From NCBI RefSeq assembly GCF_024298765.1, contig NZ_CP101210.1: DNA of 64,000 nucleotides. One strand, given 5' to 3'. This document shows, piece by piece, positions 4,277-48,993 of this stretch (positions within the stretch are counted from its first letter, which is position 1; every line of letters starts with the position of its first letter). Source of the DNA: Escherichia coli. GTDB taxonomy: Bacteria; Pseudomonadota; Gammaproteobacteria; Enterobacterales; Enterobacteriaceae. Below the pieces are notes generated by a model. It saw only the letters and a program-made list of their open reading frames with translations. It was not told the origin of the DNA and did not search any database. The translations under genes and the position numbers were made by a program.

Positions 4277-4507
4277 ATGTTGACCACAATAAGCCACGAC
4301 AGCGTGTTGCTGCGTGCCGACGATCCCCTGATCGACATGAACTACATCACCAGTTTCACCGGCATGACCGATAAATGGTTTTACAGGCTGATCAGTGAAG
4401 GTCATTTCCCTAAACCCATCAAACTGGGGCGCAGCAGCCGCTGGTACAAAAGTGAAGTAGAGCAGTGGATGCAGCAGCGAATTGAGGAATCACGAGGAGC
4501 AGCATGA
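4277..4507 (+). CDS. alpA: AlpA-family phage transcriptional regulator (MerR-like HTH)
   Basis: Internal Met of ORF 4196-4507 gives ~76 aa MLTTISHDSVLL...FTGMTDKWFYRLISEGHFPKPIKLGRSSRWYKSEVEQWMQQR, typical AlpA pattern. Confidence 0.65.
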   Translation: MLTTISHDSVLLRADDPLIDMNYITSFTGMTDKWFYRLISEGHFPKPIKLGRSSRWYKSEVEQWMQQRIEESRGAA

Positions 4508-46743: not shown

Positions 46744-47928
46744 TTAACTCTCCTGGATGGAAAGTGAATCAATGTAGTCAGCGTACCATTGCATCATTTC
46801 ACGGCGACCATCGAGATACAGGGCATGATTATAGGTACCCCTGATGGAATTTTTATCCACATGAGCTAACTGCATTTCAATCCAGGCAGAATTAAAGCCC
46901 TGTTCGTGCAGAATGGTACTCATGGTGTGACGAAAACCATGACCGGTTGCCCTGCCATCGTAACCGATACGTTTGAGCACCATATTGATGCTGGCTTCGC
47001 TCATTGGCTTGTTGATATCACAACGTCCCGGGAAAACCAGCCGGTATTGTCCGGAGAAAGTTTTGAGCTGCAGCAGAATGTCAGTGGCCTGTCGTGACAG
47101 TGGTACGACATGTTTACGTCGCATTTTCATGCGGCTTTCAGGGATTGTCCACAGGGCATTATCAAAATCAATTTCTGACCATTCAGCGGACCGTAGTTCA
47201 ATCGTTCTGAGGCCTGTCAGAAGCAGCAGATTTGTCGCCATGCGGGTAACAGGACTGCCATGATATTCAGCGAGCTTCCGGAGAAAAACAGGGAGCTCAT
47301 CTGCTCTCAGGTGGGGGAAATGTGCAGCTTTTGGCGCCGCCAGCGTACTGGTCAGTTCAGATGCCGGATTGACAGTGGCTCGTCCGGTGGCGATGGCATA
47401 ACGAAAAATCTGATTACAGTATTGACGCACCTTACGAAGTTTTTCCAGCGAGCCACGTTTTTCTATGCGGCGCAGAATTTCCAGCATTTCCAGCGGGAGG
47501 ATATCAGTAACGCTTCGTTTGCCCAGATACGGGAAAATATCTTTATCCAGAGCCTCCAGTACGCTTCTGGCGTAACTTTCAGACCATGACAAAGATTTAT
47601 GCTGATGCCATTCCGTAGCAAGGGCATGGAACGTATTGGTGGCAGAGATTTTCTGAGTGAGTTTTTCCTTTCGCTTCTTTTCGCCCGGGTCGCCACCTTC
47701 GGAGATAATTTTTCGGGCATCGTCGCGTTTGATTCTGGCTTCAGCAAGGGAGACGTCGGGATAGACGCCGAGGGCCAGTTTTTTCTCTTTTCCTGCTATC
47801 CGGTATTTAAGCCGCCAGTAGCGGGCACCCGTGGTTTTTACCAGCAGATATAAACCACGTTCGTCAGAGAGTTTATAGTCTTTTTCTTTAGGTCTGGCTG
47901 TTTCGACCTGTCTGGCTGTAAGTGCCAT
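46744..47928 (-). CDS. int: P4-type tyrosine integrase
   Basis: Start MALTARQVETARPKEKDYKLSDERGLYLLV (AGGAG RBS); C-terminal catalytic region HGFRHT...Y; adjacent to tRNA-Phe. Confidence 0.85.
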   Translation of the reverse strand: MALTARQVETARPKEKDYKLSDERGLYLLVKTTGARYWRLKYRIAGKEKKLALGVYPDVSLAEARIKRDDARKIISEGGDPGEKKRKEKLTQKISATNTFHALATEWHQHKSLSWSESYARSVLEALDKDIFPYLGKRSVTDILPLEMLEILRRIEKRGSLEKLRKVRQYCNQIFRYAIATGRATVNPASELTSTLAAPKAAHFPHLRADELPVFLRKLAEYHGSPVTRMATNLLLLTGLRTIELRSAEWSEIDFDNALWTIPESRMKMRRKHVVPLSRQATDILLQLKTFSGQYRLVFPGRCDINKPMSEASINMVLKRIGYDGRATGHGFRHTMSTILHEQGFNSAWIEMQLAHVDKNSIRGTYNHALYLDGRREMMQWYADYIDSLSIQES

Positions 47929-48104
47929 ATGGGGGCTCCTGAAACTGACTGAACACAATGAGCCCCCACCGGTGCCCCCAATGAACGCTTGATTGAGAGA
48001 GAGTTCAGTAGAGTTCGGTGGAGTTCAGGATGTTCAGATTGCTTGTAACGATGTGATTATACTTGAGTTTCGTGGAGTTCGGGAGATGAATCTGGAAGTG
48101 AAAG

Positions 48105-48180
48105 TGGTGCCCGGACTCGGAATCGAACCAAGGACACGGGGATTTTCAATCCCCTGCTCTACCGACTGAGCTATCCGGGC
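48105..48180 (-). tRNA. pheV: tRNA-Phe (anticodon GAA)
   Basis: Reverse complement reads GCCCGGATAGCTCAGTCGGTAGAGCAGGGGATTGAAAATCCCCGTGTCCTTGGTTCGATTCCGAGTCCGGGCACCA; pheV rather than pheU inferred from neighbouring yqgA-speC. Confidence 0.95.
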
Positions 48181-48285
48181 AACGGGGCGCATTAAACCTG
48201 ATTCGCCTCGTCTCGTCAATCAAATTTCTTCAATTTACTGCAGACTGCACAATCTATCATCACTTTGCCGCTATTGCACGCATTG

Positions 48286-48993
48286 TCAGGCAAACCAGGC
48301 GGTCCAGGCGGCGGAAAGCGGCATTGCCAGAAGGAGTGCTGGAAGCATGTTGACCACCGGGAACATTTTAATGCCACAGATGCGTAATCCGGTTGCCAGC
48401 AGCAATAAACCGCCTACGGCGCTGAAGTCTGCCATCATCGACGGTGTGGTCAGCGGTAATATCAGCGCGGCAGCCCACGCCAGCGTTAACTGGATGATCA
48501 GTAATGGGATACTAATTACCGACACCGCAATACCCAACGAGCAGGCGAAGATCATCGCCGTAAAGAAATCGAGAAATGACTTGGCGATTAAAATACTCGG
48601 ATCGCCGGTCATCCCTTCGTTCATCGCCCCGAAGATCCCGGTGCCGCTGGCGCAAAACAGGACAATAATCGCGACATAATTCTGAATAAAAGATTCATGC
48701 GCTGGCTTCTTACGTGAGTGGCGAAACAGATTTTGTGCTTTGGTGACCGCGGTATTGACGCCTTTTTCCAGCAGACAAATTTCGCCGATTAATGCACCGA
48801 GTAAGGTTGCTAAAACCATCGCCGGAAGGTTGGCGCATTTCACCACCAGTAAAATACCAATCCCCAGCGATGCCAGACCAAAAATAGATGTCATGGAGAC
48901 GCGGATACGTTCCGGTAAACGTTGGCTGAGCAGTGCGCCGAGAACGCCACCCAGTAAGACTGCACTAGCGTTGATAAAAGGGCCGATGACCAC
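48286..48993 (-). CDS. yqgA: DUF554 inner membrane protein YqgA
   Basis: 235-aa hydrophobic ORF matching YqgA; conserved neighbour of pheV. Confidence 0.8.
   Translation of the reverse strand: MVIGPFINASAVLLGGVLGALLSQRLPERIRVSMTSIFGLASLGIGILLVVKCANLPAMVLATLLGALIGEICLLEKGVNTAVTKAQNLFRHSRKKPAHESFIQNYVAIIVLFCASGTGIFGAMNEGMTGDPSILIAKSFLDFFTAMIFACSLGIAVSVISIPLLIIQLTLAWAAALILPLTTPSMMADFSAVGGLLLLATGLRICGIKMFPVVNMLPALLLAMPLSAAWTAWFA

What the first reader, a model, noticed from the sequence alone, without database searches (positions are those of the whole stretch)
48001..48082. Helically phased GAGTTCRG direct repeats between the integrase gene and tRNA-Phe
Copies start at 48001, 48011, 48021 and (degenerate) 48031, exactly 10 bp apart, with two more at 48065 and 48075. 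Phased repeats next to the att core are typical arm-type integrase or excisionase binding sites.
Basis: partly seen in the sequence, partly recalled or inferred. Interest (0 to 1): 0.3.

Follow-up and report, generated by a model that had tools for sequence, protein, structure and literature searches.

The report
Excisionase docking repeats beside pheV integrase
The 10-bp-spaced GAGTTC repeats between tRNA-Phe and the island's integrase gene are real and conserved, and are most likely docking sites for the island's small excision-helper protein (an AlpA/TorI-type excisionase), which is a routine part of how such islands leave the chromosome.

Summary
Exact GAGTTCRG copies lie at 48001, 48011, 48021 and 48075, with degenerate copies at 48030 and 48065. 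They sit in the 176-bp gap between pheV (tRNA-Phe) and a P4-type integrase gene of an E. coli genomic island. The gap aligns almost without indels in relatives whose integrases are 66-80% identical, and the repeat positions are kept.

The same layout occurs in P4, CP4-57 and the experimentally mapped KplE1 prophage: att core, 2 phased units, a -10-like box, 3-5 phased units, two direct integrase arm repeats, then an inverted arm repeat at the int ATG. In KplE1 the two-block, 10-bp-phased units are the sites of the excisionase TorI. The integrase arm-type sites are the repeats next to the ATG.

Here the arm-type sites are the TGGGGGC repeats at 47930-47980. These also occur on the island's far arm, where the GAGTTC array is absent. 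A natural integrase N-domain swap (L043 vs L055) changes the arm repeats but leaves the phased units and the AlpA-like gene unchanged. The window encodes an AlpA-family protein at 4277-4507.

Verdict: an excisionase (RDF) site array in attL, not integrase arm sites. It is a new member of a known kind. No binding data exist.

The parts
48001..48028 (.). Block 2: three exact phased units, GAGTTCAG, GAGTTCGG and GAGTTCAG, at 48001, 48011 and 48021 (int-sense CYGAACTC). Proposed excisionase (RDF) sites.
   Evidence: Positions are conserved in tRNA-Phe island relatives. They are the positional equivalent of KplE1 TorI sites I3-I5.
48030..48037 (.). Degenerate fourth unit, ATGTTCAG, 9 bp from the previous unit.
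   Evidence: Conservation is weak. Orthologs carry GAACAT at the same place.
47991..48000 (.). Terminal in-register unit of block 2 (int-sense TCTCTCAATC). Its AATC(A/C)A core is shared by nearly all subfamilies.
48065..48082 (.). Block 1: two units, GAGTTTCG (48065-48072) and GAGTTCGG (48075-48082). These are the best-conserved units in the tRNA-Phe group.
   Evidence: Mean pairwise identity of the cores is 0.90. They are the positional equivalent of KplE1 TorI sites I1-I2.
48056..48061 (-). Perfect TATAAT on the int strand between the two blocks, with no recognisable -35. Candidate int -10 box.
   Evidence: Conservation is 0.91. A TAtAaT box sits at the same place in most subfamilies. The promoter scan found no full sigma-70 site. 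Function is inferred.
48046..48058 (+). TAACGATGTGATT, a 12-of-13 match to the IHF consensus (YAANNNNTTGATW) that overlaps the TATAAT. A weak candidate.
   Evidence: Direct reading. The TTR half is not conserved in orthologs. An IHF site is reported in the int regulatory regions of P4 and PAI I536 (PMC7286903).
47960..47980 (-). Two direct integrase arm-type (P') sites, TGGGGGCAC (47972-47980) and TGGGGGCTC (47960-47968), 12 bp apart.
   Evidence: The G5C cores are nearly invariant in the tRNA-Phe group (class mean pairwise identity 0.84). They are equivalent to the annotated P4 attP arm repeats and the KplE1 P' sites.
47930..47938 (+). Inverted copy of the arm-type site, which overlaps the Shine-Dalgarno sequence (AGGAG) and abuts the int ATG.
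   Evidence: pairs I3, I4. P4, KplE1 and most subfamilies have the same arrangement.
48105..48123 (.). 19-bp att core, the 3' end of tRNA-Phe. It is repeated at the far end of the island, outside the window.
48105..48180 (-). tRNA-Phe (GAA), pheV.
46744..47928 (-). P4-type tyrosine integrase, 394 aa, with an N-terminal arm DNA-binding domain.
   Evidence: Arm-DNA-bind_3, Phage_int_M, Phage_integrase. It is 46% identical to KplE1 IntS and 42% to P4 Int.
4277..4507 (+). AlpA-family small DNA-binding protein (76 aa). Candidate cognate excisionase.
   Evidence: tblastn. (Pfam Phage_AlpA, 41.6 bits, cut-off 21). It is 31% identical to TorI, E = 9e-8. Whether it is cognate to this integrase is not shown.

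Best explanation
The GAGTTCRG units are an array of binding sites for the island's recombination directionality factor, a small winged-helix excisionase of the AlpA/Vis/TorI kind. They lie in the integrase-proximal att arm (attL) of a P4-type genomic island at pheV.

The arm reads, from the tRNA outward: 19-bp core; about 20 bp; two units; a TATAAT with a possible IHF site; about 15 bp; four or five units at 10-bp spacing; two direct integrase arm sites (TGGGGGC); and one inverted arm site at the int start codon.

The rest is inferred by analogy with KplE1, lambda and 186. Excisionase monomers would bind the direct repeats cooperatively, one per helical turn. They would bend the arm so that integrase molecules held by their N-domains on the TGGGGGC sites can reach the core with their catalytic domains, which favours excision over integration. 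Because the array brackets the only promoter-like element upstream of int, the same binding probably also changes int expression.

Shown here: the anatomy, its conservation, the separation of the two repeat classes, and the presence of an AlpA-family gene. Inferred: who binds, the bending, and the regulatory effect.
For: 1. Homology to a mapped system. IntS of KplE1/HK620 is 46% identical to this integrase. In KplE1 attL, five TorI sites form two blocks, I1-I2 and then I3-I5. The I3-I5 sites are 8 bp long and separated by 2 nt. The IntS arm-type sites lie next to the -10 and the ATG (PMC2951348; sequence). The window has the same order and the same 2 + 3-5 block layout.

2. P4's annotated attP arm repeats are GGGGGCAT: two direct copies, one inverted copy at the int ATG, and two more on the other arm. 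These match the window's TGGGGGC repeats, not the GAGTTC units. P4 and CP4-57 also have 10-bp phased units between the core and the arm repeats.

3. One-arm distribution. The far arm of this island (strains 8GC and W2-5) has two TGGGGGCC/TGGTGGCC repeats 12 bp apart, about 56 bp from the 19-bp direct repeat. It has no GAACTC or GAGTTC. This mirrors KplE1 attR.

4. A natural domain swap. In L043 vs L055 the integrase is 95.7% identical after residue 90 but 48.9% identical in residues 1-90. The arm repeats change from GGGGTAC to TGTATAG (41% identity across that DNA). The phased units (84% identity) and the adjacent AlpA-like gene (91%) are kept.

5. Unit cores group with the helix class of the neighbouring AlpA-like protein rather than with arm-site class or tRNA. 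L042 and L024 have the same arm class but different units and different RDF helices.

6. The window encodes a Phage_AlpA protein.

7. RDF operators are typically direct repeats one helical turn apart (PMC7498355). AlpA is a required excisionase for a P4-type prophage (PMC5148205).

8. The tRNA-to-ATG region aligns almost without indels in 14 tRNA-Phe-type sequences, and unit positions are kept.
Against: There are no binding or excision data for this island.

The AlpA-family gene lies about 43 kb from int in a mosaic island, so its cognate status is unproven.

One tRNA-Phe-group relative is an exception. L013, whose int is frameshifted, has the same AACTCC units but a neighbouring AlpA-like protein with a different recognition helix.

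The unit sequence does not match TorI sites. GAACTC on the int strand contrasts with CAGTTCG, and the GTTCG resemblance appears only on the opposite strand.

Block 2 cores are only moderately conserved (0.66), and two units drift in E. coli variants such as L089.

The promoter layout differs from KplE1, where the mapped promoter lies downstream of the TorI block.

Pfam does not place TorI itself in Phage_AlpA.

The covariation table is qualitative and based on about 20 loci.
Confidence: 0.7

Rival explanations
1. The GAGTTC units are integrase arm-type sites, bound by the N-terminal Arm-DNA-bind_3 domain in the way the tandem P'1-P'3 sites of lambda are bound.
For: The integrase has an arm-binding domain. 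Lambda's P' arm sites are also tandem direct repeats about one turn apart (established knowledge). The units lie between the core and int.
Against: A separate repeat, TGGGGGC, occupies the place of the P4 and KplE1 arm sites. That repeat is present on both arms, whereas the GAGTTC array is on one arm only. The arm repeat covaries with one residue of the integrase WRxXYR strand across about 80 loci. In L043 vs L055, swapping the integrase N-domain changes the arm repeat and not the phased units.
Confidence: 0.07
2. The units are purely a transcriptional operator for int, bound by AlpA as activator or by another island regulator, and have no architectural role in recombination.
For: The blocks bracket a conserved TATAAT that lacks a -35. 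K-12 AlpA is annotated as a transcriptional activator. TorI and IntS regulate PintS through att sites. P4 Vis regulates int (title of Piazzolla 2006, cited).
Against: In the mapped homolog the same sites serve both excision and regulation, so a regulation-only role is unlikely. CP4-57 keeps the phased units but has a terminator hairpin where the TATAAT would be. The near indel-free spacing to the core and to the arm sites points to an architectural constraint.
Confidence: 0.12
3. The units are host-factor sites (IHF or Fis) or intrinsic bending sequences.
For: IHF sites exist in the int regulatory regions of P4 and PAI I536. There is a 12-of-13 IHF-consensus match at 48046-48058.
Against: The units do not match WATCAANNNNTTR. 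Different elements within the same host species use different unit cores: GAACTC here, GTTCG in KplE1 and GTCC in CP4-57 and P4. That pattern fits an element-encoded protein. The IHF-like match lies between the blocks, not in the units.
Confidence: 0.04
4. The repeat is a chance or slippage product in the tRNA trailer and has no function.
For: Short tandem repeats can arise by replication slippage. Block 2 conservation is moderate.
Against: The array is far beyond chance expectation. Positions are kept without indels across genera whose integrases have diverged to 66-80% identity. The same phased layout is found with different unit sequences in many subfamilies.
Confidence: 0.02

Closest known systems
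TorI (RDF) binding sites I1-I5 in attL of the KplE1/CPS-53 prophage (also HK620 and Sf6), at argW-intS
   Same: The integrase is homologous (46% identity). The arm order is the same: tRNA core, a block of 2 sites, a block of 3 or more 8-bp sites at 10-bp period, then integrase arm sites next to the int ATG. The sites lie only on the int-proximal arm. The RDF is a small winged-helix protein related to the window's AlpA-like ORF (31% identity, E = 9e-8). The att sites overlap the int regulatory region.
   Different: The unit sequence differs (CAGTTCG in KplE1, CYGAACTC here on the int strand). Block 1 spacing is 20 bp in KplE1 and 10-11 bp here. The arm-site motif is GGGTAAAA there and TGGGGGC here. 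KplE1's mapped promoter lies after block 2, whereas here the only promoter-like box lies between the blocks. The target is tRNA-Arg in KplE1 and tRNA-Phe here. No experiments exist for this island.
Satellite phage P4 attP, with Int, the Vis excisionase and the annotated 'attP arm sequence repeats'
   Same: The arm repeat is almost the same (GGGGGCAT vs TGGGGGC[A/T]C), with an identical arrangement of two direct copies, one inverted copy at the ATG and two on the other arm. The integrase strand motif is the same class (WRMKYR in P4, WRLKYR here), with the same lysine. Both have 10-bp phased units between the core and the arm repeats, and both have a TAAAAT/TATAAT box between the blocks. Vis and the window's ORF are both Pfam Phage_AlpA.
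   Different: P4's units have a GTCC/TCCG core. The integrase is only 42% identical. The target is tRNA-Leu. I could not read the Vis footprint paper (Cali et al. 2004), so the exact Vis sites are not compared.
CP4-57 prophage (ssrA-intA) with AlpA
   Same: It has the same architecture: phased xxGTCC units at 10-bp period, two direct TAGGCCCA arm repeats and an inverted copy. AlpA-family proteins are required for excision of CP4-type prophages (PMC5148205).
   Different: A terminator hairpin replaces the TATAAT region. The unit and arm motifs differ. The integrase is 38% identical.
Lambda Xis X1-X1.5-X2 sites and phage 186 Apl / P2 Cox operators
   Same: All are direct repeats about one helical turn apart that are bound cooperatively by a small RDF and bend one att arm.
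   Different: The integrase subfamilies and the RDF sequences are unrelated or only distantly related, and the arm layouts differ.

Membership tests
RDF (excisionase) site array of P4/KplE1-type recombination modules | Lies in the int-proximal att arm, between the core and the integrase arm-type sites | tested here: met
   Compared with KplE1, P4 and CP4-57.
RDF (excisionase) site array of P4/KplE1-type recombination modules | Several direct repeats spaced about one helical turn apart | tested here: met
   Searches show spacings of 10, 10 and 9 bp in block 2 and 10-11 bp in block 1. The general rule is stated in PMC7498355.
RDF (excisionase) site array of P4/KplE1-type recombination modules | Present on one arm only (attL) and absent from the other arm | tested here: met
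   The far arm of the same island in strains 8GC and W2-5 has no GAACTC or GAGTTC. That arm lies outside the window.
RDF (excisionase) site array of P4/KplE1-type recombination modules | The element encodes a small AlpA/TorI/Vis-type RDF | tested here: met
   Window 4277-4507 scores 41.6 bits against Pfam Phage_AlpA and is related to TorI. It is not shown to be the cognate partner of this integrase.
RDF (excisionase) site array of P4/KplE1-type recombination modules | Unit sequence follows the RDF and not the integrase N-domain | tested here: inconclusive
   Supported by the L043/L055 swap and by the helix-class table. The table is qualitative, and L013 is an exception.
RDF (excisionase) site array of P4/KplE1-type recombination modules | Bound by the RDF and needed for excision | not testable with these tools
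   This needs EMSA or footprinting and excision assays.
Integrase arm-type sites (bound by the N-terminal Arm-DNA-bind_3 domain) | Copies on both arms of attP | tested here: not met
   GAGTTC units are absent from the far arm, and TGGGGGC-type repeats are present there instead.
Integrase arm-type sites (bound by the N-terminal Arm-DNA-bind_3 domain) | Sequence covaries with the integrase N-terminal domain | tested here: not met
   The phased units are unchanged across an N-domain swap. The other repeat class does covary with the N-domain.
Integrase arm-type sites (bound by the N-terminal Arm-DNA-bind_3 domain) | Position equivalent to the mapped or annotated arm sites of homologous systems | tested here: not met
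   The P4 arm repeats and the KplE1 P' sites map to the 47930-47980 repeats.
IHF binding site | Match to WATCAANNNNTTR | tested here: not met
   The units do not match. A separate 12-of-13 match lies between the blocks at 48046-48058, and its TTR half is not conserved.
Sigma-70 promoter | -35 and -10 hexamers at 16-18 bp spacing | tested here: inconclusive
   The scan found no site. A perfect, conserved TATAAT exists at 48056-48061 on the - strand, but the best -35 is 2 of 6 (direct reading; conservation).

The most novel reading that the evidence does not exclude
The array belongs to a near indel-free attL scaffold shared by P4, CP4-57, KplE1 and most enterobacterial tRNA-island integrases. 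In that scaffold two specificity modules are exchanged independently by recombination. One module pairs the RDF with the phased units. The other pairs the integrase N-domain with the arm repeats, and a single residue of the WRxXYR strand predicts the arm motif: K with GGGGG, D with ACGG, N with ATGG. In the pheV type the array also brackets a TATAAT that lacks a -35, so the excisionase rather than only the integrase would set int expression. It might act as an activator, as first proposed for AlpA and intA, which would differ from the repression seen in KplE1.
Probability: 0.3. Interest if true: 0.5.

Novelty: new member of a known kind. Interest (0 to 1): 0.3.

Why it matters
pheV islands carry virulence, fitness and resistance cargo in about half of E. 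coli genomes (PMC11537424). The recent survey of them describes only the flanking direct repeats and the integrase, with no mention of arm sites or an excisionase.

Assigning the GAGTTC array to the excisionase and the TGGGGGC repeats to the integrase gives a full, testable map of attL and attR for this island type. It identifies which bases to mutate to lock an island in place or to destabilise it. It also offers a simple rule, applicable to the whole P4-type family, for telling RDF sites from integrase arm sites in raw sequence. The mechanism itself is textbook, so the value is in annotation and experimental design rather than a new principle.

Tried and rejected
- Second copy of the tRNA 3' end in the window: none found with up to 3 mismatches. 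The far end had to be taken from matching complete genomes.
- Promoter and terminator scan of 47800-48300: nothing found.
- Rfam: only the tRNA matched.
- RNA folding of the int leader: z = -2.6, with C-rich units pairing with the G-rich arm sites. I judged this a by-product of composition because subfamilies with TGTATAG or ACGGTAT arm sites could not form that pairing. It was not pursued.
- The 'GTTCG' resemblance to TorI site cores: it occurs on the opposite strand relative to int, so I treated it as coincidence rather than homology.
- IHF reading of the conserved AATCAAG and TATAATCAC elements: the TTR half is not conserved.
- Other GAGTTC arrays in the window, for example near the AlpA gene: none found.
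- Strain W2-5 as a proxy for the whole window: rejected, because it diverges upstream. Strain 8GC matches better.
- The primary papers on P4 Vis footprints and KplE1 site mapping (pmid 15063119 and 20494389) are not held.

Full report
**Setting.** The window is E. coli chromosome around pheV. tRNA-Phe(GAA) lies at 48105-48180 on the - strand. yqgA and speC lie to its right, and a large mosaic genomic island lies to its left. The first island gene is a 394-aa tyrosine integrase at 46744-47928 (- strand). It has Pfam Arm-DNA-bind_3, Phage_int_M and Phage_integrase domains. The finding lies in the 176-bp gap between the tRNA 3' end and the int start codon. tRNA and int read in the same direction.

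**The observation.** The gap contains GAGTTCAG at 48001, GAGTTCGG at 48011, GAGTTCAG at 48021 and GAGTTCGG at 48075. The pattern occurs 8 times in the 64 kb on both strands (2.97 expected), and four of those are in these 82 bp on one strand. Tandem Repeats Finder calls a period-10 array, and repeat-finder runs a 20-nt family linking 48001, 48011 and 48065.

- The fourth copy is best read as ATGTTCAG at 48030, 9 bp after the third.
- The 48065 copy has an extra T.
- The two blocks are offset by 34 bp, so they are not in phase with each other.
- A fifth, in-register unit lies at 47991-48000.
- No comparable array exists elsewhere in the window.
- The stretch is island DNA, present in 531 of 5426 complete E. 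coli genomes.

**Conservation.** A scan of one genome per species with the integrase returned 80 loci. In most of them a tRNA gene lies about 175 bp upstream of int: Phe, Asn, Arg, SeC, Thr, Gly or Ser. The ten tRNA-Phe-type relatives among those loci (integrases about 66-80% identical, from Pectobacterium, Serratia, Lelliottia, Yersinia and others), plus three E. coli variants, align with the window almost without indels from tRNA to ATG.

Mean pairwise identity by class:

| Element | Identity |
|---|---|
| Block 1 unit cores | 0.90 |
| TATAAT between the blocks | 0.91 |
| Block 2 unit cores | 0.66 |
| Second repeat class (TGGGGGC) | 0.84 |
| Unstructured spacers | about 0.50 |

**Two repeat classes.** Reading the gap on the int strand gives this order:
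1. tRNA-CCA
2. about 20 bp
3. CCCGAACTCC and ACGAAACTCA (block 1)
4. AG-TATAAT
5. about 15 bp
6. CTGAACATC, CTGAACTCCA, CCGAACTCTA, CTGAACTCTC and TCTCAATCAA (block 2)
7. 8 bp
8. TGGGGGCAC, 3 bp, TGGGGGCTC
9. 21 bp
10. GAGCCCCCA-T-ATG

The second class, TGGGGGC, has two direct copies 12 bp apart and an inverted copy on the ribosome-binding site.

**Comparison with mapped systems.** The closest characterised relative is IntS of the KplE1/CPS-53 prophage (and HK620, Sf6), 46% identical. Panis et al. report that KplE1 attL holds five sites for the excisionase TorI in two blocks. I1 and I2 are 12 nt apart. I3-I5 are separated by 2 nt. The site cores are GTTCG, GATCG and GTCCG. The IntS arm-type P' sites, which carry a TAAA motif, lie by the -10 and the ATG (PMC2951348).

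The K-12 sequence confirms this layout: CAGTTCGC-12 nt-CAGTCCGC, then CAGTTCGT-CA-TGGTTCGC-TT-CAGATCGT, then GGGTAAAAA/GGATAAAAT and two inverted TTTTACCC copies up to the ATG. KplE1 attR has two direct GGGTAAAAT copies about 59 bp from the core.

P4's GenBank record annotates its 'attP arm sequence repeats' as two tandem copies plus an inverted copy at the int ATG, and two more on the other arm. They read GGGGGCAT. Between them and the core lie 10-bp phased xxGTCC units and a TAAAAT box. CP4-57 (ssrA-intA) shows the same plan, with GTCC units and TAGGCCCA arm repeats.

When about 40 loci are anchored on the first arm repeat and cut into tens, a TC ends each 10-mer of block 2 in nearly every subfamily, including P4. 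By position and arrangement, the window's GAGTTC units match the RDF sites, and the TGGGGGC repeats match the integrase arm-type sites.

**Independent tests of that assignment.**

- **Far arm.** The far end of this island lies outside the window. In strains 8GC and W2-5 it is marked by a perfect 19-bp repeat of the tRNA 3' end. On the island side of it lie TGGGGGCC and TGGTGGCC, 12 bp apart and about 56 bp from the core, and there is no GAACTC or GAGTTC. Arm-type sites are expected on both arms. In KplE1, RDF sites are on attL only.

- **Integrase covariation.** Across the loci the arm repeat follows one residue of the integrase N-domain strand WRxXYR. K goes with GGGGG(C/T), D with ACGGTA, N with GATGGTA, and R (with SKGW) with TGTATAG.

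- **A natural swap.** L043 and L055, both at tRNA-Ser in Proteus, have integrases 95.7% identical after residue 90 but 48.9% identical before it. Their arm repeats differ (GGGGTAC vs TGTATAG; 41% identity over that DNA). The DNA from the tRNA to the first arm repeat, including all GTCTC units, is 84% identical, and the adjacent AlpA-like genes are 91% identical. The phased units therefore do not follow the integrase N-domain.

- **RDF helix class.** In about 20 loci where an AlpA-like gene lies near int, the unit core groups with the helix class of that protein. TDKW[FI]Y goes with GA[AG][CG]TC (the window, L024, L039). TGYSK[AS]W goes with GTCT/GTCC. G[LM][SA]R[SA]TIY (P4 Vis, CP4-57 AlpA, L070) goes with TCC(G). 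TorI goes with GTTCG. L042 and L024 share an arm class but differ in both units and RDF helix. L013 is an exception, and the table is qualitative.

- **Different cores in one host.** Different elements in E. coli use different unit cores. This argues against a host factor.

**Candidate protein.** The window encodes a 76-aa Phage_AlpA protein at 4277-4507, related to TorI (31% identity, E = 9e-8) and to P4 Vis. It sits in a CP4-57-like gene set about 43 kb from int in a mosaic island, so it is a candidate and not a proven partner. AlpA-family proteins act as required excisionases for P4-type prophages (PMC5148205). P4 Vis binds attP by EMSA and footprint (as summarised in PMC2603039). RDF operators are typically direct repeats one helical turn apart, bound cooperatively with bending (PMC7498355).

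**Likely mechanism (inferred).** Excisionase monomers load on the two blocks and bend attL, possibly with IHF at the 12-of-13 consensus match at 48046-48058. This lets integrase bridge the TGGGGGC sites and the core during excision.

A perfect, conserved TATAAT lies between the blocks (48056-48061, - strand), but its best -35 is 2 of 6, and the scanner finds no full promoter. No terminator follows the tRNA, unlike island 2 and CP4-57. int may therefore be read from a weak or activator-dependent promoter, or by read-through from pheV.

Either way, proteins bound to block 1 (at the -35 position) and to block 2 (downstream of the -10) would change int expression. Int and RDF both regulate int in KplE1 and P4, and IntI and IHF do so in PAI I536. 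The direction of the effect here is unknown.

**Novelty.** The kind is known. This particular array is not mentioned in the recent pheV-island study, which contains neither 'excisionase', 'AlpA' nor 'arm-type'. I rate it a new member of a known kind and of modest interest. The family-wide scaffold, the residue-to-motif correspondence and the natural module swap are the more interesting by-products.

Noticed in passing
window 47930-47980 (and the far arm at L085:16795-16825, - strand): A second repeat class, TGGGGGC, has two direct copies 12 bp apart and an inverted copy that overlaps the int Shine-Dalgarno sequence and abuts the ATG. Two more copies lie on the island's far arm. They match the annotated P4 attP arm repeats and the KplE1 P' sites, so they are probably the true integrase arm-type sites.
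   Followed up: yes
integrase residues ~38-43 (WRLKYR) in the window; loci L003-L081, KplE1, P4: One residue of the N-domain strand WRxXYR tracks the arm-repeat motif across about 80 loci: K with GGGGG(C/T), D with ACGGTA, N with GATGGTA, and R (with SKGW) with TGTATAG. This may be a simple recognition rule for the Arm-DNA-bind_3 domain.
   Followed up: partly
L043 vs L055 (Proteus mirabilis and P. cibi, tRNA-Ser): A natural module swap. The integrase N-domain (48.9% identity) and the arm repeats were exchanged together. The rest of the integrase (95.7%), the phased units (84%) and the AlpA-like gene (91%) were kept.
   Followed up: yes
window 48056-48061 (- strand) and 48046-48058: A perfect TATAAT lies between the two repeat blocks. 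It is conserved at 0.91 and present as TAtAaT in most subfamilies, but has no usable -35. It overlaps a 12-of-13 IHF-consensus match whose TTR half is not conserved.
   Followed up: partly
window 48085-48104: No terminator separates tRNA-Phe from int. The neighbouring island's arm and CP4-57 carry a hairpin with a T-run right after the core. Read-through from the pheV promoter into int is possible.
   Followed up: no
outside the window: L085:15264-16740 (strain 8GC) and L002:27371-28852 (strain W2-5): Beyond the 19-bp direct repeat lies a second, different P4-type integrase (420 aa, 42% identical) with its own arm: GGGTATA repeats, TCAA-phased units and a terminator hairpin. The pheV locus therefore carries tandem islands.
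   Followed up: partly
window 4277-4507 (+): An AlpA-family ORF (76 aa, Pfam Phage_AlpA) sits in a CP4-57-like gene set about 43 kb from int. It is the candidate excisionase.
   Followed up: partly
L087 (E. coli DG341-1, NZ_CM144243.1 762099-765255): A related integrase (the upstream arm is 77.7% identical to the window's) lies next to ynjA with no tRNA-Phe. The core reads GGGTACTACC instead of GGGCACCAC. This is possibly integration at a secondary site.
   Followed up: no
window 47905-48048 (- strand RNA): The predicted int leader folds at -45.7 kcal/mol (z = -2.6), with the C-rich units pairing with the G-rich arm repeats. This is probably a composition effect, because other subfamilies could not form the pairing.
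   Followed up: no
L021-L023, L025, L027, L033, L037, L079 (tRNA-SeC loci): This subgroup has a longer gap of about 300 bp between tRNA and int and a different layout: GGGGGTA repeats far upstream and a long leader. It does not fit the 175-bp scaffold.
   Followed up: no
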